Origin: Christensenellales bacterium
Lineage (GTDB): Bacteria; Bacillota; Clostridia; Christensenellales; UBA1242
Direction: 5' to 3'
DNA: 64,000 nucleotides
Assembly (NCBI GenBank): GCA_051883495.1
Contig: JBJETV010000023.1
Location: 30,285 to 94,284, forward strand
Positions 24 through 64,000 of the stretch are shown in pieces (position 1 is the stretch's first letter; the number at the start of each line of letters is the position of its first letter). The notes beneath the pieces are model-generated. The model made no database searches, was not told the origin of the DNA, and was given only the letters and a program-made list of their open reading frames with translations. The translations under genes were made by a program, and so were the position numbers.

Positions 24-665
24 ATGAATGGACAGAGCAATGTGCTTGTTGCTGTGCCAAAAGAAAAAGCGGAGTTTGCCAAGGATTTTGTAAAACAAAA
101 AATCGCAGAATGTATATTATTTTTTTACAAAAAAGATTATATAGTGTCCAAACTCAACTTTGAAAGACCAAAAACACCATATATGAATGTATTTTTGCAG
201 ACTTTGGTTTGCTTTGACGGGGAGGCGGACAAGCATCTTATCGAACAATGTCTTGATTTTGAAGATAGAGTTTTTGTTGATGCGGTTGTAGCCTTCAAAC
301 TTAAATTTTTGAAAAACAAATGGGAAGAACTCGTTTCGCTTGCCAATGAAAATGTTATGTATTTTCTATCGGAGGATAGCCTGCTAGAACTTATTAAATT
401 CCTTATATCCAATCTAGAACACAGATGTTATGCTGTAAATGTTTTTTCAAAAAGTGATTGTTACTTCCTTTGCGACTTGCAGGGGAAGAGAATTGATGAT
501 TTTATGTTAGAAAAGCAAGGGATTTATGAAGATGGCAACTTGCTTACAACACTGGTCGCATTAAACCCAGAAAAGATAATCGTGCATTGCAACAAATTTG
601 TTAAGGATAAGTTGCTTCGCAATCTATTTAGCCTTTTTCCAAACAGAATTGAAATATGCAAATAA
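24..665 (+). CDS. YtxC-like putative sporulation protein (start uncertain, frame open to window edge)
   Basis: 213-aa ORF directly upstream of the thrS T-box leader, matching the ytxC-thrS arrangement of endospore formers. There is no in-frame stop between position 3 and the ATG at 24, so the gene may begin left of the window. Assignment is by context only. Confidence 0.4.
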   Translation: MNGQSNVLVAVPKEKAEFAKDFVKQKIAECILFFYKKDYIVSKLNFERPKTPYMNVFLQTLVCFDGEADKHLIEQCLDFEDRVFVDAVVAFKLKFLKNKWEELVSLANENVMYFLSEDSLLELIKFLISNLEHRCYAVNVFSKSDCYFLCDLQGKRIDDFMLEKQGIYEDGNLLTTLVALNPEKIIVHCNKFVKDKLLRNLFSLFPNRIEICK

Positions 666-763
666 CCATTGTATTTGACTAATATCTACGATTGAAATCT
701 CGACTTCTTAACCCCAAAAGAAAGTGAAAAGAAGAATTTTGTAGGCAAAATTGATAAAAAATG

Positions 764-1075
764 TTGACATAGTAATTGTTTAGGGGTATAATTTTGTTAT
801 CATAGTGATAGGCAGAAGACAAGTAGCCCAAGCATAACTTTGCCAGAGAAGGCAACATTTGGTGGAAGTTGCGTAATTGATTGTGTTTGGTGTCGAAACC
901 ACTTTGTGCTCTATGCAAGATGCAACTTGACAAATGCAATTTGAGTGGCAAGAAATTCTTGCAATAAAGGTGGAACCACGGAAAGTTAATTTTCGTCCTT
1001 TGATTTTGTTTTTATGCAACAATATCAAGGGGCTTTTTTGTTGTAAAGCCCACAGTTGCAAAAGGTTTAGGGAGG
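764..1075 (+). promoter_or_regulatory. T-box leader (Thr specifier) with promoter and intrinsic terminator, controlling thrS
   Basis: Promoter TTGACA 764-769, 17-nt spacer, TATAAT 787-792. Stem I elements AGAGA and GGTGGAA are present. Specifier context is GAA-ACC-A, with ACC (Thr) at 898-900. T-box sequence AAAGGTGGAACCACG lies at 966-980. Terminator hairpin CCTTTGAT 997-1004 / ATCAAGGGG 1024-1032 is followed by a T-run at 1034-1039. Confidence 0.85.
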
Positions 1076-3741: not shown

Positions 3742-4086
3742 ATGAGAATTAAAAGAGCAGTTAACAAAAACAAACACAAAAAAGCAATCCTAAAGCAAGC
3801 AAAGGGCTTTAGAGGAACAAGAAGCAAACTGGTAAGAGTGGCCAATGAATCTGTTATGAGAAGCTTGCGTCATGCTTACATTGGAAGAAAACTTAAAAAG
3901 AGAGATATGCGCCAACTTTGGATTGCTCGTATCAATGCAGGTTGCAGACAAAATGGTCTTAGCTACAGCAAATTTATGGGCGGCCTAAAAGCAAAAAATA
4001 TCAATCTCAACAGAAAAGTTCTTGCAGATATGGCAGTGAACGACAAGGCTGGATTTAGCAAACTTGTAGAAGAAGTAAAAGCATAA
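3742..4086 (+). CDS. rplT: 50S ribosomal protein L20
   Basis: 114-aa translation ([14 protein letters not shown]...[24 protein letters not shown]) is typical of L20. Confidence 0.95.
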
Positions 4087-18458: not shown

Positions 18459-18491
18459 GACTGACGACAGACTATTTGCCGTCAGTTTTTG
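18459..18491 (+). terminator. intrinsic terminator after recN
   Basis: Stem GACTGACG / CGTCAGT followed by TTTTT. Confidence 0.7.
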
Positions 18492-18793
18492 CGTTATTAT
18501 GAAAAATTTGCGAAAAATATTGTTATTTCCTTGACAAAATACAAATAAAATGCGAATAATAAATATAGAAAAATTTTAGTTGAAAGGGGAGAGAAGATGA
18601 CTCGCAGGGAAAGATTTGTGCTGTGGCTCAACAAAGTGGGCAGAGGGTGCAACCGAATAACAATATGTGTGCTATACATAACCACCATGTTAATCCTTGC
18701 TACACTTATCTTTGGCGCAACCCAGCAAAAAGCCACTTCAAACATCACTGTAACCTACTCCAGACCCTCATACACCGTTACTTTTGACCCACA

Positions 18794-18805
18794 GGGGGGG
18801 GGGGG
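18794..18805 (+). repeat. poly-G homopolymer (G12) inside the coding sequence
   Basis: Counted directly in the sequence: acaGGGGGGGGGGGGtatct. Confidence 0.95.
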
Positions 18806-18975
18806 TATCTCCCAGCACTAAAACCGTCAAATTAGGCGATAATTACGGTGATTTGCCCACTCCAACAAGGACTGGTTACTCTTTTAATAACTGGCAAACA
18901 TCAGACGGCACAACAGTAACATCCACCACCCAAAATACTACTATTGGCGACCATACTCTTACTGCCAGTTGGACC

Positions 18976-19509
18976 GCAAAGAGTTATTCAGTATCAAAGG
19001 GTGCCAATATAGCAGGGGTTACCGTAACAGTAAATTCTTCAGGAACATTTGACAGTGCTTTATCCATTTCTACCAGTGGCAGTGCCTCTGGCTATGACTA
19101 TACATTTACGGATATAAAAGTGTATTCTGGCACTAGCACCAGTGGAACACTACTTGCAACATACACTTCAACTTCTGCAACTTTTACTATGACAGGAACA
19201 TATTATGACAACATTTATGTTTATGCAAGTTGGTCAAGGACTGCAAAGACTTATACAGTAACGAAAGGCTCAAACCTTACAGGCACAAGTGTATCAGTAA
19301 ACTCCACAGGAACATTTGATAGCAATTTGTCTATTTCTTCCAGTGGAAGTGCAACAGGTTATAACTATTCAATTACAAATATAAAGGTTTTTTCAGGCAG
19401 TAATACCAGCGGAACCCTACTTGCCACCTATACATCTACTAGTGGCACTTTTAAGATGACCGGCACTTATTATAGCAGCATCTATGTATATGCCACATGG
19501 ACACGTTCT
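18976..19509 (+). repeat. in-frame tandem duplication, 2 x 267 nt (89-aa modules)
   Basis: AKSYSVSKGANIAGVTVTVNSSGTFDSALSIS...YVYASWSRT versus AKTYTVTKGSNLTGTSVSVNSTGTFDSNLSIS...YVYATWTRS. Confidence 0.9.
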
Positions 19510-20195
19510 GCAAAAACCTATACAATAACCCTAGACAGACAGAGTGGTTCAGGAGGCTCTTCTTCAGCAACCGCAACATACAATGCCACACTACCTAGCA
19601 TATCTATTCCTTCAAGAGCAGGTTACACTTTTGGTGGATATTATACTGGCACAGGAGGTTCAGGCACGCAGTATTACAATTCATCAGGCGCAGGGACAAG
19701 GTCTTGGACCACAGACGGTGGCGCAACATTATATGCCAACTGGTCGGCAATTCCAACAACAATTTCCGCAAGTTCGACTTCGGTGAGGTATTATCCGTAC
19801 TTGTTGAGTGTTGGGAGTATTGATGATGATGCTGATTGGGAAGATGATAGTGGATCCACAACGATCATTGCAGGTGGTGGTGGAGGGAAATGGGTATATA
19901 GTGTGGTTAGTACTAGTAGATCTACAACAAAATCAAATGCCAAATTTGACATCTCTCGCGGGGATCCTTCTAGAAGTAATTGCTATTCTCTATCAACCAC
20001 CTCAGCCACTACAGGTTCTGTAACTTTGACATGTAGCTGTATCCCCGCATATACGATTGTTGGAAGTGATGAAAATAGACATAGAGTATATTGGGATGCA
20101 ACATACACCTATGTAATTCGAGCCACAAGTGTGTATAACAACTCCTATGCAGATATAACAATAAGTTTTGTCGTTACTTATTACACACAAGATTA

Positions 20196-20378
20196 AGTGC
20201 AGGGTGTATTTGTAAATATGGAGATGGACCTAATGACAGACCATCTAATGTAGCAGTTGTATATACTTATGTAGTTCAAGCAGAAAGTGTTTACAATGGG
20301 ACAAAAGCAACTATAACCGTTAAATTCGCCTCTTCATATTGGGATGACAGCACTTGGATAATAGAAGATGATGAGTAG
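20196..20378 (+). pseudogene. out-of-frame second copy of the C-terminal module of the surface protein
   Basis: Frame 0 reads SAGCICKYGDGPNDRPSNVAVVYTYVVQAESVYNGTKATITVKFASSYWDDSTWIIEDDE*. This is homologous to the in-frame end TCSCIPAYTIVGSDENRHRVYWDATYTYVIRATSVYNNSYADITISFVVTYYTQD*. It has no start codon of its own and lies upstream of the terminator. Confidence 0.7.
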
Positions 20379-20426
20379 GGGTTTAACTAATTAGTCGTCT
20401 CAAATAGACAGAATAGGAAATAAATG

Positions 20427-20462
20427 GCAACATAATGGCAAATTATGTTGCTATTTTATTTT
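20427..20462 (+). terminator. intrinsic terminator of the surface-protein locus
   Basis: Perfect 10-bp stem GCAACATAAT / ATTATGTTGC followed by a T-rich tail. Confidence 0.8.
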
Positions 20463-20562
20463 GAATAAATATTACTTTGTATTTTATTTCAAAAATGTTT
20501 AGACTTATTTTGCAAAGTGTGCTAAAATTGGTATGAATATTTTTTTATAAGGGAATAATTTT

Positions 20563-30670: not shown

Positions 30671-30745
30671 GGAGCTCGTGAGCGGACTCGAACCGCTGAC
30701 CTATTGATTACGAATCAATTGCTCTACCAACTGAGCCACACGAGC
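30670..30745 (-). tRNA. tRNA-Thr (anticodon CGT), CCA encoded
   Basis: Reverse complement folds as GCTCGTG-T-GGCTCAGTTGGTAGAGC-A-ATTGA-TTCGTAA-TCAAT-AGGTC-AGCGG-TTCGAGT-CCGCT-CACGAGC-T-CCA. Confidence 0.93.
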
Positions 30746-33934: not shown

Positions 33935-34112
33935 TTGCAATTCGCAATATGCTAAAGTTCACTACATTATTTTTATAACCAATTTTAGTAAAAAAAAATA
34001 TATAAGCACAGAGAAAGGGTCACGACATAGAAAAGACTTGTTATTGTTTTTATCATTAATAGTATGCTGTAGTATTTTTTTAAAAGTTAAAGGTATAAAA
34101 GAGGAATAATTG

Positions 34113-35996
34113 ATGACAAGAAAATCGTGGAAAAATAGTAATAGCCCAAAAGAAATTATGGAATTAATAAAAAAAACAAAGACTATTGATAAGTTCAAGG
34201 TTCTAACTTATTTTGGTATATATCAAAAAGATTTGGGAATGTTGGAAAAACTATTAAAATCTGGATACTATACTCCAGAAGAAATTGCTGAAAAATATAG
34301 TAGAAGTTATTTGCCATGGAGTTATGCTCCAGCTCGTAAATTGGTTTTAGCTTTTTCTGATTTGGCTTGGCAAAAATCAGATAACTTGTTAAAGGTGTTA
34401 AGTATAAATGCTGGAGGTGCTTCAGACGATTATGAATCTTTTTTGATAAAATTAAAATATTTTGAGCAGTATAACCATGAAATTTACGAGCAACTATTAC
34501 AAACTAGTAAGGGGCAAGTTTATATTCTTAATACATTAGCTCGGGATGTTGAGAAAAATAAAAATCAAATTTTTAACATGTTGATAAAACATTCAAATTT
34601 GCTTGATGGTTTTGATTTAATGGAATATAGAGAGTTGTTTACAGATGAGGAATTTGAGATAATACAACAAGAACGAAAAAAAAATTGGAAACATGATACT
34701 GAGCCTCAACTAATTATGTATAAGGCAACACCAGAAAATAAATGGGAAATACTTGAGTATTTTGCAAATAAAAATGAAGTAATTTTTAATAGAATAGTCA
34801 GTGAATATGTAACAAGAACAAAGAAAACTATTAAAAAAATTTATTCTAGAAACGAAATTCTTGAACATTATAGTTCCATTGATTTAGATATATTGCCTGT
34901 GTGTTTAAAAAATTATGTCCTGACCTTAGAGAAAGATATTGTAAATGAGAAGGAATTAAAAAGGCAAAAGCAGGAAGAAAGAATAGAAGTAAGAGAAAAA
35001 AAGTTGTTGTCTTGGAGTGATGAGTATTCTTTAACAGTATTTTTATTTAAGCTTGGTTCAATTACACCAAAGTCAAAAAAAGAATATGAGAAAGTTATGA
35101 AAAAATATTTAGTAGAAAATTTAAGTATCACTTCATTCTGTATAAAGTATAAAATAAGCGATGTTAAAGGTTTTAAGAAAATGCTTGAGAAGTTCTCTGC
35201 GGAAAACCCTCAATATGCGGAGCAAATTAAATCAAAATCAAATATACAGCGAGCTCAATATGTAGATAAAGTAAAAGAAATTATCAAGAGTATTTGTGTT
35301 AGAGACGAATCTGTTGGATCAATTATGAAGCATTCAAAAATATTTCCACTTAAGGAATTGCAGATGGCAGCAAGTAGTTTATTTCCAGATAAAGATTATT
35401 GTGAATCTTTGACTATTAAAGTTGTTGAATATTATTATAGTAGATTAGTTTCACATGCATATAGCATTGAGCCTAAAAACTTAGAAAATATGCTAACAAA
35501 TGATGAAATAAGATTTATCATAGGAAATGAAGAATACAATGCAATAATATCTGGCAAAAAAAGTGAGATAAAAAAAATATTTCTAAAAAGAATCTCTTTC
35601 TTAAACTCAACACAATATGCATTTATTAGAAAAAAAGTAAATAGTCAGATACCAAACTTAATAAAAGCGATTGCTAAATATGACAGCAAGTTTAATAAAA
35701 AAGAATATTTAAAAATGACAACATTTATGTTTGCAGAAGGTGGGAAGCAAGTGGAAGTAACTAAGGAAATGGTAGATATAGCATATCAATATGCATACTC
35801 TAAAAATATATATCCTAGCGATGCTGTTATGAGGAGTTTAATTAAAGACGTTCTGAATGGTAAAATTAAAAATATATGGGAGGCTGAACAAGACAAAAAA
35901 AATAGGAACAACGAATTGGAATTTGTTAACAAAATAGCTAATATTGATGAATATTTTGAAGTAATGGATAATTATTATAATAAAAACAAGCAATAA
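34113..35996 (+). CDS. hypothetical protein, 627 aa, Lys/Glu/Asn-rich, apparently all-helical, no recognisable motif
   Basis: Long uninterrupted ORF with RBS AGAGGAA 6 nt before ATG 34113. No signal peptide, TM segment, P-loop or other motif recognised. Visibly more AT-rich than the flanking genes. Confidence 0.7.
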   Translation: MTRKSWKNSNSPKEIMELIKKTKTIDKFKVLTYFGIYQKDLGMLEKLLKSGYYTPEEIAEKYSRSYLPWSYAPARKLVLAFSDLAWQKSDNLLKVLSINAGGASDDYESFLIKLKYFEQYNHEIYEQLLQTSKGQVYILNTLARDVEKNKNQIFNMLIKHSNLLDGFDLMEYRELFTDEEFEIIQQERKKNWKHDTEPQLIMYKATPENKWEILEYFANKNEVIFNRIVSEYVTRTKKTIKKIYSRNEILEHYSSIDLDILPVCLKNYVLTLEKDIVNEKELKRQKQEERIEVREKKLLSWSDEYSLTVFLFKLGSITPKSKKEYEKVMKKYLVENLSITSFCIKYKISDVKGFKKMLEKFSAENPQYAEQIKSKSNIQRAQYVDKVKEIIKSICVRDESVGSIMKHSKIFPLKELQMAASSLFPDKDYCESLTIKVVEYYYSRLVSHAYSIEPKNLENMLTNDEIRFIIGNEEYNAIISGKKSEIKKIFLKRISFLNSTQYAFIRKKVNSQIPNLIKAIAKYDSKFNKKEYLKMTTFMFAEGGKQVEVTKEMVDIAYQYAYSKNIYPSDAVMRSLIKDVLNGKIKNIWEAEQDKKNRNNELEFVNKIANIDEYFEVMDNYYNKNKQ

Positions 35997-36089
35997 AAAA
36001 GACTTTATAGGTGTCATAAGAAATGATAGTAGGCAATGTCACTCATATTGTAAAATAACAATAAATTTATTTTGTTTGTAAGCCCGCTA

Positions 36090-37947: not shown

Positions 37948-38033
37948 TGGTACCAAAGGAGGGACTCGAACCCTCATGAAGTTGCCCTCGTCAGATTTTG
38001 AGTCTGATGCGTCTACCATTCCGCCACTTTGGC
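37948..38033 (-). tRNA. tRNA-Leu (anticodon CAA), long variable arm, CCA encoded
   Basis: Reverse complement folds as GCCAAAG-TG-GCGGAATGGTAGACGC-A-TCAGA-CTCAAAA-TCTGA-(variable arm)-GAGGG-TTCGAGT-CCCTC-CTTTGGT-A-CCA. Confidence 0.9.
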
Positions 38034-41530: not shown

Positions 41531-42286
41531 ATGGAGAGTATTTTTGTTTTTGACAGTGGTAGTGGTGGGGAATTTGTAACCAAAGAACTTTTGCGTGCCT
41601 TGCCACAAGAAAATTTTGTGCTGTATAAAGATGTAAAAAATTGTCCTTATAGCACCAAAAGCAAGATAAAACTTTGGCATATTGCTTGCAAGATTTTGAA
41701 AACCGCTACAAAGGTTTTAAGCCCCAAAGCAATAGTAGTTGCCTGCAACACTATGAGCAGTCTGTTTGAAAATAGAATAAGAAAAAAATTTGGCACTATT
41801 CCAATATTTTTTGTTACCCCAATGATAACCAATAAAATTTTGTCAAAAAAGACTCTTGTTCTTGCTACAACCCGTACTGTTAGTTGCAATAAGGAGGTAT
41901 TAAGCGCAAAAAGCAACAAAAATTGCATTGTTGTTGGCTTTGATAATTTGGCAAAAATGATAGACCTGGCAAAAGACTCGCCAAAGGTTGATGCAGATAT
42001 AAAATTGCTTTTACTAAATAGCCTAAGTAAATACAAGATATTTGGCATTAAAAATATAGTTTTGGGTTGCACGCATTACAGTTATATAAAAAAGCATTTG
42101 AAAGAGATTTTTGGCAATGTCAAGTTTTATGAAAAAAGCAAAATCATTGCCCAAGAATTAAAGGATTATTTGCAAAATTCAAACCCTGAAGAAAGCAAAA
42201 TTTTATCAAAGAAAAACCTAAAAACGATATTCAACAAGCAGGTTATTGTCGTGGAAAATATAAAAGAATTAAAGTTGTTTGCTTAG
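41531..42286 (+). CDS. murI: glutamate racemase
   Basis: FVFDSGSGG, VVACNTMS and VLGCTHYS motifs (two catalytic Cys) of the Asp/Glu racemase family. No Shine-Dalgarno sequence upstream. Confidence 0.85.
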   Translation: MESIFVFDSGSGGEFVTKELLRALPQENFVLYKDVKNCPYSTKSKIKLWHIACKILKTATKVLSPKAIVVACNTMSSLFENRIRKKFGTIPIFFVTPMITNKILSKKTLVLATTRTVSCNKEVLSAKSNKNCIVVGFDNLAKMIDLAKDSPKVDADIKLLLLNSLSKYKIFGIKNIVLGCTHYSYIKKHLKEIFGNVKFYEKSKIIAQELKDYLQNSNPEESKILSKKNLKTIFNKQVIVVENIKELKLFA

Positions 42287-42325
42287 AGATTTGAGCATAA
42301 AAAAAAGCCCCAAACGGAGCAGATA

Positions 42326-42402
42326 TGGTGGTCCCAATAGGACTCGAACCTATGACCTCTTCGATGTGAACGAAGCGCTCTAACCAACTGAGCCATGGGA
42401 CC
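42326..42402 (-). tRNA. tRNA-Val (anticodon CAC), CCA encoded
   Basis: Reverse complement folds as GGTCCCA-T-GGCTCAGTTGGTTAGAGC-G-CTTCG-TTCACAT-CGAAG-AGGTC-ATAGG-TTCGAGT-CCTAT-TGGGACC-A-CCA. Confidence 0.93.
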
Positions 42403-42414
42403 TTAACTGCAAAT

Positions 42415-42442
42415 ATATTACCACAAAAAAATAAAAAATCAA
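42415..42442 (-). promoter_or_regulatory. tRNA-Val promoter (extended -10)
   Basis: Minus strand reads TTGATT (42442-42437), 16-nt spacer, TGg-TAATAT (42420-42415). The tRNA 5' end lies 12 nt downstream. Confidence 0.6.
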
Positions 42443-42459
42443 GTAAATTGATTATATTT

Positions 42460-42798
42460 TTGAAAAAATGAGCAAAAATTTTTTGAAATGAAAGGTTTTG
42501 TTCTTTTGAAATGATAGGGCTTATCCATTAAAAACGAAAACCTCATCCTCTCGAAATGAAAACTATCTCCCTTTGAAGTGATAAACTTTGCCTATTTGGA
42601 AAAAACATTGTTCTTTTGAAATTATATATTTGTATGTTTTGGGGTGAAGAGTTTTATTTAGTTGAAATTAAAGGTTTAGATGCTTTGAGGTGAAAAATTT
42701 TGTTTAGTTGAAATTAAAAATTTATTATTTTGGAATGAAAGATTTTGTTTGCTTGAAATTATGATTTTTATTATTTTAGAATGAAAGAAATTTTGACT
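42460..42798. repeat. about 15-unit degenerate tandem array, 23-bp unit / 46-bp super-unit (TTGAAATGAAA... alternating with TTGAAATTA...)
   Basis: Unit starts (TTGA/TTGG/TCGA/TTAG) at 42460, 42483, 42506, 42528, 42551, 42573, 42596, 42616, 42639, 42662, 42685, 42708, 42730, 42753 and 42776. Spacing is 20-23 bp. Confidence 0.9.
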
Positions 42799-42848
42799 TA
42801 TATAATAAATGAATGATTTAATGTAAAAAATTTATTCAATTTTTATTA

Positions 42849-42871
42849 AAAAAATCCTCCAAAGCGGAGGA
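42849..42871 (-). terminator. intrinsic terminator of the Asn-rich lipoprotein gene
   Basis: Minus strand reads CCTCC-GCTTT-GGAGG followed by ATTTTTTT, immediately after the stop codon. Confidence 0.75.
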
Positions 42872-42877
42872 TATTTG

Positions 42878-45049
42878 TTATGCACGCACTTGCTTTGGCC
42901 CAAATGAAAGGGAATAGGCGGAGTGGTAAGAATTTGAACAAGTTTTTTCCAAATAATCTACAACAGGGAGTTTTAGTGGGGCTGTGTAGTAGTTTATCCC
43001 AGTGTTGTTTTGCACATTAGAGTTGTTCCTTGTATTTTGACTATTTGTTCCAACATTGCCATTTTGATATTGATTATTTTTATTTGTTTGGTTATATCTT
43101 TGAATGTTGTTATAGTTGTTTATTGCGTTGTAAGACTGACTATTTTGATTGTTTCTGTTGTAATTATTATTTTGCATATTATTTCTGTTATAGTTTCTGT
43201 CGGTTGTATTATAATTGCGTGATGTAGTATTTTGATTATAATTCTTGTTTATATTACTATAATTTTGAGAATTATTTTGGACAGTATTTCTATTTGAATT
43301 GTTTATTCCATTCATATTTTGAGTATTGTTGTAGTTGGTGGCAGAATGGGAATTGTTTATTCTATTGTTTTGATTATCATAATTAGTCTTTCTTATTGTA
43401 TTATTTGAAGAATTGTCCATTTGAGTTGTTTTGTTGTTTTGAATTTTATTATAACTTACACCGTAGTTTGAATTTTGATTTTTGTTTGTTGTAGAGTTGT
43501 TGATATTTGTATTAGAATTGTTTATTACATTTTGACTTGAAATCTTTTGATTGTTTGCAGGTATAGTTTGATTTGAATTGTTATTTGATGTATTATTCTC
43601 TGAAATTCTTGTTGCACTGTCGGCAGAATTTCTATCTTGAGTGGAATAATTTTGATTTGCAATTTTTTGATTATTATTAAAATTGCTATCTATTGTTCTG
43701 TCATCAGCCAACGACTTGTATGTGCGTTGTGGCACAATAGTTGGAGTGGAAGTATTGTTATATTTATTTTCTAAATATTCTTGAGGATTCTTTATATCCT
43801 TTGTGTAGGCATTGTTGTAGTTGTTTTTTTGAGTGTTTTGTGAGTTATTAGAAAAACTGGTTGAGTTGTTTTGATACCCATTTGAATTGTTTTGATATCT
43901 ATTTGTGTTTTCTTGATATCTATTCGAGTTGTTTTGATATCTGCTTGAGTCATAAACTCTGTTGTTTGTTCTGTTGGTTGAGTTATAATTGTTTGATTGG
44001 TTGTTTTGATTTATATAACTGTTCCTATTGTTTTGTGAGTTATAAGTTCTATTTCTGGAAGTTTGATATCTATTGCTTTCAAACTGATTTTTTGCATAAT
44101 TATATCTGTTTTTGGCTGTTTGATTGGAGCCTAACATTGCTTCATTGGTTGTTTTTTCGCCAAGAAGTTTGCTGGCAAAATTGATAAGGTCAATAACAGA
44201 ATTGTTTGCATTGTTGCAAGTATTGCAATTGGAGTCTATGCAGTTGTAGATATTTCTATAGTCTGCTGTCATAGAGCCAGAATTGCTGGCGAGATTCAGT
44301 TTTTTCTTGCCGATAGAGTTCACTGTAGATTTGCAACCTTTGCAGGAAGTAATGTTATTGGTGCATTGCTTGATAACTTCATAATAACTATTTAGCGTCT
44401 TTACATCACTATCCGAAAGTTTTGCTTCACCATTTTTTAATCTTTCCAAGAGTTCTTTGGCACGATTGCAGTTGTTAATAAGTGATGTCTTTGTGCTAGA
44501 ATATTCTTTGTTTAGGTCACAAACATTGTTGCAAGCAGTTCTGAGGTCATTGTAACCACTGTCGCTGGTTGCAAGGTTAAGGTTTCTTTTGGTTGCTCTA
44601 TAATCACTTGATGCAAAAAGATTGGCATTGGCTCGTTGAGTCATATGATTTTTTGTTGGCATTTTTACATTCAGCACTTCTCTGTATGGATAAATATTTC
44701 TTCTAGTGTTGCTTCTTTGACTAGATGTATCAGCATTCTGCGTGTTTGAAGTGTTGTAGTTTTGAGAGTAATTCTTGCACTTATAGCAACTGCCATTTTC
44801 ACAATAATAGCAATCATCTCCATAGCAGTGATAACCGTCAGATGTGTCCATATTTTCTCCCAAAATAGAGTTTAGATCTATTTTGTCGGTGTTTACATCT
44901 TCCAGTTTTTTCACCTGGGATATCATTTTATCCAACCCCCCAGATATTTTTTTGCTGGCAAGTTTAACCTGCGCCTGATTGCCATTTGAACATGCAAAAA
45001 GGAAAGTGCAAGCCAGCAAAATTGACAATAATCCAATAAATTTTTTCAT
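42878..45049 (-). CDS. lipoprotein with Cys-rich N-terminal half and roughly 400-aa Asn/Gln/Ser/Tyr-rich low-complexity C-terminal half
   Basis: Signal peptide plus lipobox MKKFIGLLSILLACTFLFAC-S. Cys clusters (HCYGDDCYYCENGSCYKC, CNNVC, CKGCK, CIDSCNTC). From about residue 325 onward, nearly continuous N/Q/S/T/Y/R sequence with heptad-like NRYQNNS repeats. Confidence 0.8.
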   Translation of the reverse strand: MKKFIGLLSILLACTFLFACSNGNQAQVKLASKKISGGLDKMISQVKKLEDVNTDKIDLNSILGENMDTSDGYHCYGDDCYYCENGSCYKCKNYSQNYNTSNTQNADTSSQRSNTRRNIYPYREVLNVKMPTKNHMTQRANANLFASSDYRATKRNLNLATSDSGYNDLRTACNNVCDLNKEYSSTKTSLINNCNRAKELLERLKNGEAKLSDSDVKTLNSYYEVIKQCTNNITSCKGCKSTVNSIGKKKLNLASNSGSMTADYRNIYNCIDSNCNTCNNANNSVIDLINFASKLLGEKTTNEAMLGSNQTAKNRYNYAKNQFESNRYQTSRNRTYNSQNNRNSYINQNNQSNNYNSTNRTNNRVYDSSRYQNNSNRYQENTNRYQNNSNGYQNNSTSFSNNSQNTQKNNYNNAYTKDIKNPQEYLENKYNNTSTPTIVPQRTYKSLADDRTIDSNFNNNQKIANQNYSTQDRNSADSATRISENNTSNNNSNQTIPANNQKISSQNVINNSNTNINNSTTNKNQNSNYGVSYNKIQNNKTTQMDNSSNNTIRKTNYDNQNNRINNSHSATNYNNTQNMNGINNSNRNTVQNNSQNYSNINKNYNQNTTSRNYNTTDRNYNRNNMQNNNYNRNNQNSQSYNAINNYNNIQRYNQTNKNNQYQNGNVGTNSQNTRNNSNVQNNTGINYYTAPLKLPVVDYLEKTCSNSYHSAYSLSFGPKQVRA

Positions 45050-57494: not shown

Positions 57495-57568
57495 AGGGGA
57501 ATAGTTCAATGGTAGAGTAGCGGTCTCCAAAACCGTCGATGGGGGTTCGAATCCCTCTTCCCCTGCCA
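57495..57568 (+). tRNA. tRNA-Trp (anticodon CCA), CCA end encoded
   Basis: AGGGGAA-TA-GTTC-AATGGTA-GAGT-A-GCGGT-CTCCAAA-ACCGT-CGATG-GGGGG-TTCGAAT-CCCTC-TTCCCCT-G-CCA. Confidence 0.9.
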
Positions 57569-61963: not shown

Positions 61964-62039
61964 AAACATAAAATTTAAGCAATTTTTGGTCTTGAAAGGG
62001 AATATATACTGACATATATAATTTTTTTATACTATTTCC

Positions 62040-62190
62040 TAAACATTTCCAAGTACTGTGCAAACTCTATATAAAATATGCAAAATATAAGATATGCAAA
62101 ATTAAACAAATTCAAATGCTATGTAAAATTACGCAAATTAGGTACTATGCAAAATAAGTGCTATGCAAACTTATAAAACAACGCACACCA
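62040..62190. repeat. degenerate 16-20-bp repeats of (C)TATGCAAA(A/C)
   Basis: TGCAAA/CGCAAA cores at 62059, 62079, 62095, 62132, 62148 and 62164, plus variants at 62117 and 62181. Confidence 0.75.
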
Positions 62191-62769
62191 AATGAAATAA
62201 TAAAAAAACTTACAATTTTATGCGATAATTTACATTGATTTTATCAATAAATATAAGAAAATCCTTGATAACAAATAAAAACATATGTTTAATTTTAATA
62301 GGCATTATCAATTATAAATATATGGTTATGTGAGATAGAATAATATGGGAGTTTTGTAAAATTAGATAATCTCTTATTAAAAATTTTACAGGAAAAAAAT
62401 TTGTATAATTAGCAAATTTTTAGAAATTTTTAATGAACAATCCTTCACATAAAAGTAAAAATGCTGTCTCAGACAACTTTTATAATGTGTTTTTTTATAA
62501 AAAAATAGAAAAAATCTCATACAGAATATGGGATTTTTTTTAGTATAAAATATGAGATTTTTATATAATTTTTCGATTTTTCTAATATAGATTTTGGCTG
62601 AATTTATAGAAATTATTAAATACATTTACAGATTACATAAAACTAATCAAATATAAAATAAAATATTTTTGAAAAAGTTTAGATAAATTATTTAATATGG
62701 TCAGCAAATTAAATTTAATAAAATCAACCAAAAAATCTTATATTTGTAAAATATTTGGAATTTTAGCCC

Positions 62770-62803
62770 AACTATTCGCAAAACCTGTGTTTTGCGAATA
62801 GTT
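62770..62803. other. perfect 15-bp inverted repeat with 4-nt loop
   Basis: AACTATTCGCAAAAC 62770-62784, loop CTGT, GTTTTGCGAATAGTT 62789-62803. No U-tract on either strand. Confidence 0.85.
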
Positions 62804-62829
62804 TATACGGATTGAACTATTAAATTTTT

Positions 62830-62960
62830 TATAAAAAAGTGTTGGAAATATTATATTTCTTTATTAAAAGAGTGACACTCATTACTTTTTTTTAATAAAA
62901 AGTGATGTGTTATTAGTTTTTTAATAAAAATGTGAACTATCAATTTTTAATATAATGAGT
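62830..62960. repeat. five degenerate 25-33-bp repeats (TTTTTTAATAAAAAGTGA-N6-ATTA)
   Basis: GTG/TGA cores at 62839, 62872, 62902, 62931 and 62956. Confidence 0.7.
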
Positions 62961-63126
62961 TGCCCTATTTATTTGTATATTTTCAATGTTTTTGTATTTT
63001 GTAACCTTATATATTATATTTTGTAATCTTAGTTTTTCTTATTTTATAATTTATTTTCCAAATTTGATTTTGCTGTTTATCTATCTTTTTTTATTTCACA
63101 TTCATTCCCTATTAAAGATTTTTATG

Positions 63127-63810
63127 TTAATACATTGTCAAAAGAAAATTGTAATTTTTTAGCAATTCCCTACTATTTTTCCAATTTGGGCAAATTTTTT
63201 CCAACTCAAAATAAAATCTTTTTGAGTGATTCATTTCTTTTAGATGTGTAATTTCGTGATAAATAACAAAGTCTATTATTGATTGGCTAAGCATGGCAAG
63301 TCTCCAATTAAATTTTATCAAACAATTTGAGTCACAACTTCCCCATTTTGCGTGAAAGTCGCCTATAGAAACTTTTGAAACATAGGCATTGTTTGCCTGT
63401 GCAATTTCTTTCAATCTTGCTGGGATAACTCTACTTGCAATTTCTTTTACCGCTTTTTTTATACATAGGTCGATTTTGTCTGCTGTAAGATACTTTTCTG
63501 GCACAAAAAAATATTCATCAGAAAACGAAGGTTTTTTTATTTTTTGAGAAAATGCAAGTTTATATTCCTTTCCAAAGAGCAAAATAGATTTTTTTTTCAT
63601 AACATCAGCATAGTTTTTGCTTAACATTTTTGCATTGGCAATTTTGCTAGAAATGGTGCGTTCCTTGCTTTTTAGGACTTCGTCCACTTTATTTAGCGAT
63701 AGCCCGTAGGGGCAATAAACAGTGAGGTCCCCTGCCCTATTGACTACAATTTTTATTGTTTTTCGTTTTTCCCTAACAATACTTGCTTGTTCAATCATTT
63801 TTATCCTCAA
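63127..63810 (-). CDS. DUF45/YgjP-like (M48-related, SprT-like) metal-dependent hydrolase
   Basis: 227 aa. HEITHLKEMNHSKRF is the HExxH...H motif characteristic of the DUF45 family. Confidence 0.75.
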   Translation of the reverse strand: MRIKMIEQASIVREKRKTIKIVVNRAGDLTVYCPYGLSLNKVDEVLKSKERTISSKIANAKMLSKNYADVMKKKSILLFGKEYKLAFSQKIKKPSFSDEYFFVPEKYLTADKIDLCIKKAVKEIASRVIPARLKEIAQANNAYVSKVSIGDFHAKWGSCDSNCLIKFNWRLAMLSQSIIDFVIYHEITHLKEMNHSKRFYFELEKICPNWKNSRELLKNYNFLLTMY

Positions 63811-63865
63811 AATAATTTTATCATATTATTCCCTTCTTTGAAAGAGTTTAGACCCCTTTTTTGTT

Positions 63866-64000
63866 GACTAAAAAGAAAGTTTTTTGTAATATATAACTGT
63901 ATTATTTATATTATCGGAAGTTGTCGGCAAACAGCCCAAAGGGATACTTGCCAGCAACTGATGATAATTCAAACTGTGATGAAAGAAAAATCTTAGTTTT
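63866..64000 (+). promoter_or_regulatory. promoter plus structured 5' leader of a gene beyond the window edge (class unknown)
   Basis: TTGACT 63866-63871, 17-nt spacer, TAATAT. Nested helices follow: AGTTG...CAACT enclosing GGCAA...TTGCC enclosing CCC-AAA-GGG, then CTGATGA / GTGATGA motifs. Truncated by the window. Confidence 0.3.

What the first reader, a model, noticed from the sequence alone, without database searches (positions are those of the whole stretch)
18780..18825. G12 homopolymer splits a surface-protein gene exactly inside a conserved repeat: likely slipped-strand phase variation
A run of 12 G at 18794-18805 is very unlikely by chance in such an AT-rich genome. Upstream, ORF 18597-18821 encodes a TM anchor and ends ...SYTVTFDPQGGGG-ISQH*. 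The +1 frame continues GGGVSPSTKTVKLGDNYGDLPTPTRTGYSFNNWQT. With G11 (or G14) the two parts fuse into one intact Listeria-Bacteroides (Flg_new) repeat, YTVTFDPQGGG-VSPSTKTV...PTRTGYSFNNW. The tract therefore sits inside a single gene, and the sequenced state is OFF. This is the classic architecture of a contingency locus for a surface or adhesin-like protein.
Basis: seen in the sequence. Interest (0 to 1): 0.65.

Follow-up and report, generated by a model that had tools for sequence, protein, structure and literature searches.

The report
Poly-G on/off switch in surface-protein gene
A run of 12 G's interrupts a membrane-anchored surface-protein gene of an uncultured gut Christensenellales bacterium, and the same G-run, in different lengths and reading frames, sits at the same codon in a whole family of such genes, so it is very probably a classical slipped-strand on/off switch in a bacterial group where this has not been described.

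Summary
G12 lies at 18794-18805 and is the only G run longer than 6 in 64 kb. It splits one transcription unit into a 74-aa anchor ORF and a 463-codon downstream frame. G11 or G14 gives one 532-533 aa protein, and the tract falls in a loop of its first InlB B-repeat (Flg_new) domain.

The gene belongs to a narrow Christensenellales family with a shared 5' module (TM anchor plus first B-repeat) and variable C-terminal parts. A frame-neutral DNA scan found pure G9-G12 tracts at the same codon in several paralogs per MAG: at least 7 in UBA7862, 6 in JBNMHO01, and at least 3 in this MAG.

Among about 21 distinct loci, 5 are in frame, 13 carry one extra G and 3 lack one. One 35-43x MAG holds all three states with identical flanks. 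Out-of-frame downstream ORFs stay open for 274-634 codons with dN/dS 0.11-0.40, so they are not decaying pseudogenes. Close homologs with an interrupted tract (GGGGGAGGG) are all intact.

Best reading: a slipped-strand contingency locus, sequenced OFF. The mechanism is classical; the gene family and lineage are new. No reads were available, so switching itself was not observed. The excess of +1 states and their agreement among orthologs remain unexplained.

The parts
18531..18560 (+). Promoter-like site, TTGACA-18 nt-AATAAT, 37 nt upstream of the ATG
   Evidence: 11 of 12 consensus matches. This is a consensus match only. An inverted repeat at 18460-18486, followed by a T run on the + strand, lies just upstream, after recN (the scan listed it on the minus strand).
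18585..18593 (+). Shine-Dalgarno-like AGGGGAGAG upstream of ATG 18597
   Evidence: Read directly from the sequence. No comparable motif precedes the TTG at 18784 that the public annotation uses as the start of the downstream piece.
18597..18821 (+). Upstream ORF as sequenced (74 aa). It has a positively charged N-terminus and a single TM helix, then a linker and the start of the first B-repeat. It ends 5 codons after the tract. This is the OFF product.
   Evidence: Kyte-Doolittle maximum 2.46 at residues 21-39, 6 K/R against 1 D/E in residues 1-20, and no other hydrophobic segment. AlphaFold models a helix at 20-43. NCBI annotates it as hypothetical protein ACI4L7_03970, MGN0798697.1.
18654..18725 (+). 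Coding region of the N-terminal signal-anchor / TM helix (residues 20-43)
18794..18805 (+). G12 homopolymer on the coding strand: the proposed slipped-strand switch. G11, G14 or G8 is ON. G12 is OFF(+1). G10 or G13 is OFF(-1).
18771..18966 (+). First InlB B-repeat (Flg_new) domain, interrupted by the tract. The tract encodes the Gly loop between the first two strands.
   Evidence: Pfam PF09479 at fused residues 59-123. TIGR02543 at 89-128. The model has strands 58-64 and 73-78 flanking the loop. Foldseek matches 2y5p, the InlB B-repeat, with TM 0.80-0.82 and rmsd 1.9-2.3 A over 74 columns.
18784..20196 (+). Downstream reading frame (470 aa from the annotated TTG; 463 codons from the Val codon at 18805). 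It is open to its natural stop. It holds two tandem 89-aa beta domains, a second B-repeat-like unit, and a C-terminal beta domain conserved in the family.
   Evidence: It equals P0001 / MGN0798698.1, 'InlB B-repeat-containing protein'. The internal repeat is 63/89 identical. The structural model has mean pLDDT 81.
20422..20466 (+). Terminator-like hairpin plus T run after the gene
   Evidence: 15-pair stem, loop of 5, tail TATTTTGAAT.

Best explanation
The G12 tract is a hypermutable simple-sequence repeat inside a single gene (18597-20196). The gene encodes an N-terminally membrane-anchored, extracellular, all-beta InlB-B-repeat protein. Slipped-strand mispairing at replication adds or removes G's. 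With G11 (or G8 or G14) the ribosome reads through and makes the 532-aa surface protein. With G12, as sequenced, it terminates after 74 aa and only the anchor stub is made.

The gene is one of several paralogs per genome. They share a nearly identical 5' module that carries the tract and have different C-terminal ectodomains. Each tract can therefore switch independently, and a population carries many combinations of surface proteins. This resembles Neisseria Opa or the Campylobacter poly-G phasome.

Shown here:
- the tract, its position, and the frame logic;
- family-wide conservation of a pure tract at the same codon;
- different lengths and frame states among paralogs and among alleles of one locus;
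- purifying selection on the out-of-frame parts.

Inferred:
- high-rate reversible switching within a clone;
- surface exposure;
- the selective agent (phage, IgA or niche).
For: 1. The tract is far above chance, and G11 fuses the two ORFs.

2. A search pattern that cannot distinguish frame (GGGGGGGTATCTCCCAGC) found 17 family hits in Christensenellales-type MAGs, two of them re-fetches of loci already held, and 1 chance hit. There are 6 loci in UBA7862, 6 in JBNMHO01, 3 in CAYLWT01 and 2 in Hadza MAGs. One more came from metagenome contigs. A seventh UBA7862 gene with a variant downstream sequence was missed by the pattern.

3. Frame states of the distinct loci:
- ON: L007 G10, L010 G11, L012 G11, L015 G10, L021 G11.
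- OFF(+1): window G12; L001, L013, L018, L019, L025, L030 and the second gene in L008, all G11; L008, L009, L017 and L027/28, all G12; L002 and L026, both G9.
- OFF(-1): L022, L023, L024 and L029, all G10.

4. In one MAG assembled at 35-43x, identical contexts differ only in tract length. CCGGCA+G10 is ON in L007 and L015; CCGGCA+G11 is OFF in L019.

5. One locus differs between samples. L027/L028 have G12 and L029 has G10, with 1 mismatch in about 390 nt upstream and 1 in 150 nt downstream. The window's own locus, syntenic next to recN, has G12, G11 (L030) and G9 (L026) in three samples.

6. The nearest intact homologs have an interrupted tract, GCA GGG GGA GGG (L003-L006).

7. Downstream frames of OFF loci are open for 274-634 codons. 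dN/dS is 0.11-0.40, for example 0.13 for L009 versus L019 over 583 codons at dS 0.59.

8. The window's MAG has two more split family genes, ACI4L7_02510 in the -1 frame and ACI4L7_00375 in the +1 frame.

9. GGG is only 23% of Gly codons in 38 long ORFs of the window, so the tract is not a codon-usage by-product.

10. Ten A8-A9 or T8-T9 runs lie inside intact long ORFs of the window, so the assembly is not generally error-prone at homopolymers.

11. Poly-G of 7 or more is the accepted cut-off for phase-variable tracts in Campylobacter, and tracts of 8 or more are shown experimentally to switch (PMC6321876).
Against: No reads are available, so length heterogeneity within a sample was not seen, and the G12 call itself cannot be verified.

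The states are not what free, fast switching would give. +1 outnumbers -1 by about 13 to 4. Orthologs mostly agree: window/L030/L026 are all +1, L009/L017/L019 all +1, L001/L025 both +1, and L010/L021 both ON. The three alleles of the window locus differ by frame-preserving changes.

The one discordant same-locus pair rests on a 1.9x contig (L029).

An ON allele of this particular locus was not found in 5.8 billion proteins.

The mismatch-repair status of the organism is unknown.
Confidence: 0.75

Rival explanations
1. Assembly or sequencing miscall. The real tract in this organism is G11 (or the population is mostly G11), so the gene is simply intact and the split is an artefact of consensus calling at a long homopolymer in a MAG.
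For: G10-G12 runs are difficult for every platform. The window comes from a MAG whose reads and platform I cannot see. Contig ends and an N gap abut the tract in other assemblies: L002 starts 46 nt before it, L017 ends 27 nt from it, and L011 has an N run next to it. L029 has only 1.9x coverage.
Against: Independent assemblies (MEGAHIT k141, SPAdes NODE, UBA) give all three frame states. One 35-43x MAG gives G10 and G11 in identical contexts. Ten A/T runs of 8-9 inside long ORFs of the window cause no breaks. Two other samples also give the +1 frame at this very locus. Even if this call were wrong, a conserved pure G11 would still be a hypermutable tract.
Confidence: 0.1
2. Programmed recoding. 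The one-extra-G configuration is the normal genomic state of many family members. The full-length protein is then made by RNA-polymerase slippage on the G run, or by a +1 shift of tRNA-Gly within GGG GGG GGG. This would give a fixed ratio of stub to full-length protein rather than a heritable switch.
For: +1 is the commonest state, about 13 of 21 loci. It is shared by orthologs separated by dS 0.55-0.59 whose downstream frames are under strong purifying selection, with dN/dS 0.13-0.15. The three alleles of the window locus keep the +1 frame although the tract region differs: CA+G12, GCA+G11, GCA+G9+ATC. From general knowledge, a run of identical GGG codons allows perfect re-pairing after a shift, and the run resembles a Shine-Dalgarno sequence.
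Against: Five loci are in frame and four are in the -1 frame, which a fixed +1 recoding signal does not explain. No 0-frame stop or rare codon sits next to the shift site; the stop is 5 codons on. From general knowledge, transcriptional slippage in bacteria is documented mainly for A/T runs. Concordance among orthologs is only weakly significant, on my rough estimate p about 0.02-0.05 with non-independent samples.
Confidence: 0.07
3. Plain pseudogene. A frameshift happened to fall in a G-rich codon run, and the gene is decaying.
For: As sequenced the gene is broken, and public annotation calls it as two CDSs. No ON allele of this locus was found.
Against: There is no second lesion in the 463 downstream codons here, or in the 274-634 codons of about 15 other OFF loci. 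dN/dS is 0.11-0.40 between OFF orthologs. The tract is conserved as a pure run at the same codon across paralogs and genomes.
Confidence: 0.04

Closest known systems
Campylobacter jejuni / C. coli intragenic poly-G contingency genes (the 'phasome'; PhasomeIt survey, PMC6321876)
   Same: The tract is a homopolymeric G run on the coding strand of an AT-rich genome. Lengths are 9-12, it lies inside the ORF, and ±1 G toggles translation. Several such genes occur per genome, and ON/OFF states are mixed across genomes.
   Different: The host is a Clostridia-class gut commensal known only from MAGs. The switched genes are paralogs of one surface-protein family with a shared 5' cassette, not mostly glycan-modifying enzymes. 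Modal lengths here are G10-G12, against G9-G10 in Campylobacter. Switching has not been measured.
Neisseria Opa outer-membrane adhesins (CTCTT repeats in the leader-peptide coding region; own knowledge)
   Same: A multigene family of surface proteins. Each copy carries a frame-shifting repeat in the 5' coding region next to the export signal. The 5' ends are conserved, the exposed parts vary, and independent switching gives combinatorial expression.
   Different: The repeat here is a mononucleotide, not a pentamer. It lies in the first extracellular domain, about 25 codons after the TM anchor, not in the signal peptide. The protein fold is unrelated (B-repeat beta modules versus a beta-barrel).
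Streptococcus equi subsp. zooepidemicus SZO08560, a Listeria-Bacteroides-repeat surface protein with an invertible promoter (PMC2654543)
   Same: A Flg_new/PF09479-containing surface protein of a Bacillota member proposed to be phase-variable.
   Different: The mechanism there is recombinase-driven promoter inversion, and anchoring is by LPXTG. Here the mechanism is an intragenic SSR, the anchor is an N-terminal TM helix, and there is no LPXTG.
Listeria monocytogenes InlB B-repeat (PDB 2y5p)
   Same: The domain fold: TM 0.80-0.82, rmsd about 2 A, 28% identity. Pfam and TIGRFAM matches are above their cut-offs.
   Different: No LRR internalin domain, GW modules or LPXTG were detected, so the rest of the architecture is unrelated. 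InlB is not known to be SSR-switched (own knowledge).

Membership tests
SSR-mediated (slipped-strand) translational phase-variable gene / contingency locus | Uninterrupted homopolymeric G/C tract at or above the length known to be hypermutable (7 or more; 8 or more shown experimentally in C. jejuni), located inside the reading frame | tested here: met
   G12 at 18794-18805, 198 nt into the ORF. Thresholds are from PMC6321876.
SSR-mediated (slipped-strand) translational phase-variable gene / contingency locus | A change of one repeat unit switches between a full-length and a truncated product | tested here: met
   In-silico G11, G14 or G8 gives 531-533 aa. G12, G10 and G13 give 74-79 aa.
SSR-mediated (slipped-strand) translational phase-variable gene / contingency locus | Tract more frequent or longer than base composition predicts | tested here: met
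   G9 or longer: 0.11 ± 0.37 matches expected in shuffles, and the only matches lie in this tract. GGG is 23% of Gly codons.
SSR-mediated (slipped-strand) translational phase-variable gene / contingency locus | Repeat number differs among homologous genes, strains or samples, giving both ON and OFF states | tested here: met
   G9-G12 with 5 ON, 13 OFF(+1) and 4 OFF(-1), counting L029. Same-locus differences: L027/28 against L029, and window against L030 against L026.
SSR-mediated (slipped-strand) translational phase-variable gene / contingency locus | OFF alleles remain functional genes (reversibility implied) | tested here: met
   Downstream frames are open for 274-634 codons, with dN/dS 0.11-0.40.
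SSR-mediated (slipped-strand) translational phase-variable gene / contingency locus | High-frequency reversible length change within a clonal population, with a matching change in protein expression | not testable with these tools
   No reads, isolates or expression data. The organism is known only as a MAG.
InlB B-repeat / Listeria-Bacteroides repeat (Pfam PF09479 Flg_new; TIGR02543) containing protein | Profile match above the curated cut-off | tested here: met
   PF09479: 61.4 bits against 27, with 2 stretches. TIGR02543: 25.4 bits against 20.95.
InlB B-repeat / Listeria-Bacteroides repeat (Pfam PF09479 Flg_new; TIGR02543) containing protein | B-repeat fold | tested here: met
   The AlphaFold model (pLDDT 81-86 in this domain) matches 2y5p with TM 0.80-0.82 and probability 1.00.
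Internalin (LRR plus LPXTG or GW surface protein of Listeria type) | N-terminal LRR internalin domain and a C-terminal LPXTG or GW anchor | tested here: not met
   Pfam finds only Flg_new. The fused sequence has no LPXTG motif. The only anchor is the N-terminal TM helix.
Programmed +1 frameshift / transcriptional realignment gene | A fixed out-of-frame genomic configuration conserved in all orthologs, with a shift-prone site and a stimulator | tested here: inconclusive
   +1 predominates and is concordant among orthologs. However, ON and -1 alleles also exist, and no canonical stimulator is evident.

The most novel reading that the evidence does not exclude
The predominant one-extra-G state may not be 'off'. 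In this reading, many family members are kept permanently in the +1 configuration. This would fit its conservation among orthologs at dS about 0.6, the strong purifying selection downstream, and the frame-preserving differences among alleles of the window locus. The genes would then be decoded by slippage of RNA polymerase or of tRNA-Gly on the G run. The tract would work as a recoding rheostat, layered on or replacing a DNA-level switch. Such a mechanism is essentially undocumented for G runs in bacteria.
Probability: 0.08. Interest if true: 0.8.

Novelty: new member of a known kind. Interest (0 to 1): 0.55.

Why it matters
Phase variation in human-gut commensals is known mostly from invertible promoters in Bacteroidales and some Clostridia. 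I found no report of simple-sequence contingency loci in Christensenellales, an order known, from my own knowledge, for heritability and links to host leanness.

If the reading is right, these uncultured bacteria carry at least 3-7 independently switchable surface proteins built on one 5' cassette. That would be a ready-made system for escaping phage or IgA, or for changing adhesion.

There are two practical consequences:
- MAG annotation pipelines split these genes into a 'hypothetical protein' plus a truncated 'InlB B-repeat protein', so the family is under-counted.
- Tract lengths in metagenomic reads could serve as a direct read-out of selection on these surface proteins in vivo.

Tried and rejected
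- **Window MAG contigs.** I tried to fetch the window's own MAG contigs for its other two split family genes and for P0001. The MAG is not in the contig index.
- **Metagenome scan.** The pattern scan of metagenome contigs gave only one locus, so a broad read-out of the same locus across samples was not possible.
- **ON allele search.** I searched 5.8 billion proteins for an ON allele of the window locus and of the L027 locus. None was found. The hits were downstream fragments (P0149, P0152, P0153) and tract-less orthologs (P0150, P0151).
- **N-terminal module search.** A 65-aa query against 1.84 billion cluster representatives returned only 23 proteins. This is useful for showing how narrow the family is. 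It is too affected by clustering to give an ON:OFF ratio.
- **Whole-model Foldseek.** Beyond the B-repeat it returned only generic Ig-like, pilin or adhesin beta-sandwich matches with TM below 0.3. No function can be assigned to the repeat or C-terminal domains.
- **Rfam.** It found only four tRNAs in the window, none near the locus.
- **Independent expression of the 470-aa piece.** I rejected expression from the annotated TTG at 18784. It has no ribosome-binding site, and the product would lack the anchor or export signal.
- **Mobile-element context.** I rejected this. The neighbours are argR, recN, polA and an SLT transglycosylase, and the locus is syntenic in two other samples.
- **L020.** This Gemmatimonadota hit is a chance G7 match, not a family member.

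Full report
**1. Observation**

The window reads ...ACT TTT GAC CCA CAG GGG GGG GGG GGT ATC TCC CAG CAC TAA... with twelve G's at 18794-18805. The window is 34.7% GC. The next-longest G runs are three of 6 and the longest C run is 6. A G9 probe matches only inside this tract, against 0.11 ± 0.37 matches in dinucleotide-preserving shuffles.

ORF 18597-18821 gives 74 aa ending ...SYTVTFDPQGGGGISQH*. The frame entered by removing one G stays open to 20196. Replacing G12 by G11, G14 or G8 gives one ORF of 532, 533 or 531 aa. G10, G12 and G13 terminate at codons 78, 74 and 79.

**2. The gene**

The fused product has:
- a charged N-terminus (6 K/R against 1 D/E in residues 1-20);
- one hydrophobic segment, residues 21-39, with a Kyte-Doolittle score of 2.46 and no other such segment;
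- an all-beta remainder.

AlphaFold, run on a 20-sequence family alignment, gives mean pLDDT 81. It models a TM helix at 20-43, a disordered linker, a B-repeat at 58-127, two tandem beta domains, a second B-repeat-like unit and a confident C-terminal beta domain. The tandem domains are 89 aa each and 63/89 identical.

Pfam Flg_new matches residues 59-123 at 61.4 bits against a cut-off of 27. TIGR02543 also passes its cut-off. The model matches the solved InlB B-repeat 2y5p with TM 0.80-0.82. The tract encodes the Gly loop between the first two strands, a place that should tolerate one Gly more or less. There is no LRR domain and no LPXTG, so this is not an internalin. It is a type-II-anchored B-repeat surface protein.

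A promoter-like TTGACA-18-AATAAT (18531-18560), a good Shine-Dalgarno sequence before ATG 18597, and a terminator-like hairpin at 20422-20456 bracket a monocistronic unit. The TTG at 18784 that NCBI uses to start the 470-aa 'InlB B-repeat-containing protein' (MGN0798698.1) has no ribosome-binding site.

The neighbours are argR, recN, polA and an SLT transglycosylase, which is ordinary chromosomal context. The source is a MAG labelled Christensenellales bacterium.

**3. The family**

Protein searches show a family with a conserved N-terminal module: MT(K/R)xERFVLWLN..., a TM helix, then ...SNxTVxYSRPSYTVTFDP-x-GG(G)-VSPSSKTVKLGDNYGDLPTPT. The C-terminal parts differ greatly. The module occurs in only 23 of 1.84 billion cluster representatives, so the family is confined to a narrow lineage.

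Several database proteins begin exactly at the tract: MTPRGGVSPS..., MTQQGGGVSPS..., MTRWGGVSPS.... Fifteen 66-107-aa proteins are the matching upstream stubs, ending GGGGISQ... (+1 frame) or GGGYLPA... (-1 frame). Two of these stubs come from the window's own MAG, ACI4L7_02510 (-1) and ACI4L7_00375 (+1). This genome therefore has at least three split family genes.

**4. Frame-neutral survey at the DNA level**

The sequence G(7 or more)TATCTCCCAGC is identical in ON and OFF alleles, so a scan with it is unbiased for frame.
- In one genome per species it gave 18 hits: 17 in Christensenellales-type MAGs and one chance G7 hit in a Gemmatimonadota MAG.
- Metagenome contigs added one locus.
- Exact-protein look-ups added six loci.
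- A further family gene in L008, with a variant downstream sequence, was found by eye.

I anchored the frame on the conserved ACN TTT GAC codons. The distinct loci are:

| State | Loci |
|---|---|
| ON | L007 (G10), L010 (G11), L012 (G11), L015 (G10), L021 (G11) |
| OFF(+1) | window (G12); L001, L013, L018, L019, L025, L030 and the second L008 gene (all G11); L008, L009, L017, L027/L028 (all G12); L002, L026 (both G9) |
| OFF(-1) | L022, L023, L024, L029 (all G10) |

Three points matter most.
- In MAG JBNMHO01, with contigs at 35-43x, the identical context CCGGCA is followed by G10 in two paralogs (ON) and by G11 in a third (OFF). A context-specific miscall cannot explain the states.
- L027/L028 (two samples, G12) and L029 (G10) are the same locus with almost identical flanks. 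L029 has only 1.9x coverage.
- The window's own locus, recognised by synteny with recN and 91-98% flank identity, has CA+G12 here, GCA+G11 in L030 and GCA+G9+ATC in L026.

The closest full-length homologs, at 80% identity, are intact and have the interrupted GCA GGG GGA GGG (L003-L006). That is the expected stabilised form.

**5. Not pseudogenes**

In all OFF loci the downstream frame is open for 274-634 codons to a normal end. Nei-Gojobori dN/dS between orthologs that are both OFF is:
- 0.11 for L009/L017;
- 0.13-0.15 for L009 or L017 against L019, over 583 codons at dS 0.55-0.59;
- 0.40 for L001/L025;
- 0.24 for L027/L029.

Sequence that was never translated would not behave this way.

**6. 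Not a generally poor assembly**

Ten A8-A9 or T8-T9 runs lie inside intact long ORFs of the window, and 38 ORFs of 200 aa or more are unbroken. GGG is only 23% of Gly codons. A run of three or four GGG codons flanked by further G's, conserved across paralogs and genomes, therefore points to selection for the DNA tract itself.

**7. Mechanism**

The best-supported reading is classical slipped-strand phase variation. Replication slippage changes the number of G's. G11, G8 or G14 gives the 532-aa anchored surface protein. G12 gives a 74-aa stub.

With several paralogs per genome, each carrying the tract in a shared 5' cassette, independent switching would generate combinatorial surface variation. 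L010 and L012 illustrate the shared cassette: they are 97% identical over the 200 nt upstream of the tract and 44% identical from 180 nt downstream.

Poly-G of 7 or more is the accepted criterion for such tracts in Campylobacter, and 8 or more has been verified experimentally. Lengths 9-10 are modal there and 11-12 less common (PMC6321876).

Switching within a clone, surface exposure and the selective agent are inferences.

**8. What does not fit neatly**

+1 states outnumber -1 states by about 13 to 4, and orthologs mostly share a state. Alleles of the window locus differ by frame-preserving changes. Three explanations are possible:
- an insertion bias combined with selection for OFF in the gut;
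- a low switching rate;
- less likely, decoding of +1 alleles by RNA-polymerase or ribosome slippage on the G run.

I keep the last as a low-probability rival because ON and -1 alleles exist and no canonical stimulator is visible.

**9. Comparison and novelty**

In how it works, this matches the Campylobacter poly-G phasome. In family architecture it matches Neisseria Opa. A Flg_new surface protein of S. zooepidemicus has been proposed to be phase-variable, but through an invertible promoter (PMC2654543).

Full-text searches found nothing on SSR phase variation in Christensenellales, on poly-G tracts in Clostridia, or on B-repeat proteins switched this way. The mechanism is known. The gene family and the lineage are new, so I rate it a new member of a known kind.

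**10. Verdict**

The decisive read-level or experimental test is still missing. Confidence in the contingency-locus reading is 0.75 and interest is 0.55.

Noticed in passing
L008 863-871 (Christensenella sp. UBA7862, DLSM01000010.1): A C9 run, which is G9 on the minus strand, lies 6 nt upstream of the ATG (856) of a divergent 142-aa membrane-protein ORF (428-856, minus strand). It sits in the ribosome-binding region, next to a family gene. It may be a second kind of G-tract switch, acting on translation initiation.
   Followed up: partly
L008 3790-4705: A second family gene has G11 (4042-4052) followed by TATCCTCTAAG (the VSSK variant) and is OFF(+1). The search pattern missed it, so the per-genome counts of tract-bearing paralogs are minima.
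   Followed up: partly
L010 versus L012 (same MAG); also P0121, P0123, P0054 and P0148 of the window's species: Paralogs within one genome share an almost identical 5' module: 97% over the 200 nt upstream of the tract, falling to 44% from 180 nt downstream. The first 52 residues of P0054 are identical to the window ORF. This suggests concerted evolution, or cassette-like recombination, of the anchor-plus-tract module.
   Followed up: partly
L027 versus L029, about 330-520 nt downstream of the tract: A block of clustered differences, including two 3-nt indels, is flanked by near-identical sequence. It looks like a recombination or gene-conversion patch in the variable ectodomain.
   Followed up: no
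L002 1-55; L017 1-39 (reverse strand); L011 7792-7800 (reverse strand); L022: Assemblies tend to break at or next to the tract. L002 starts 46 nt before it, L017 ends 27 nt from it, and L011 has an N run beside it. The 2976-bp contig behind L022 has 105x coverage against 35-43x for the rest of that MAG. These may be collapsed paralogs or graph bubbles caused by the repeated 5' module or by tract heterogeneity.
   Followed up: no
window 18597-18821 and 18784-20196: Public annotation (NCBI) records the locus as two separate CDSs, the hypothetical protein ACI4L7_03970 and an 'InlB B-repeat-containing protein' starting at a TTG. It is not recorded as one frameshifted gene. The same happens in other MAGs, which hides the family from protein-based surveys.
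   Followed up: yes
window 34001-36000, 42001-44000, 62001-64000: These stretches have markedly lower GC (25-28%) than the window mean of 34.7%. tRNA genes lie at 30673-30745, 37951-38033, 42329-42402 and 57495-57565. I did not examine these regions further.
   Followed up: no
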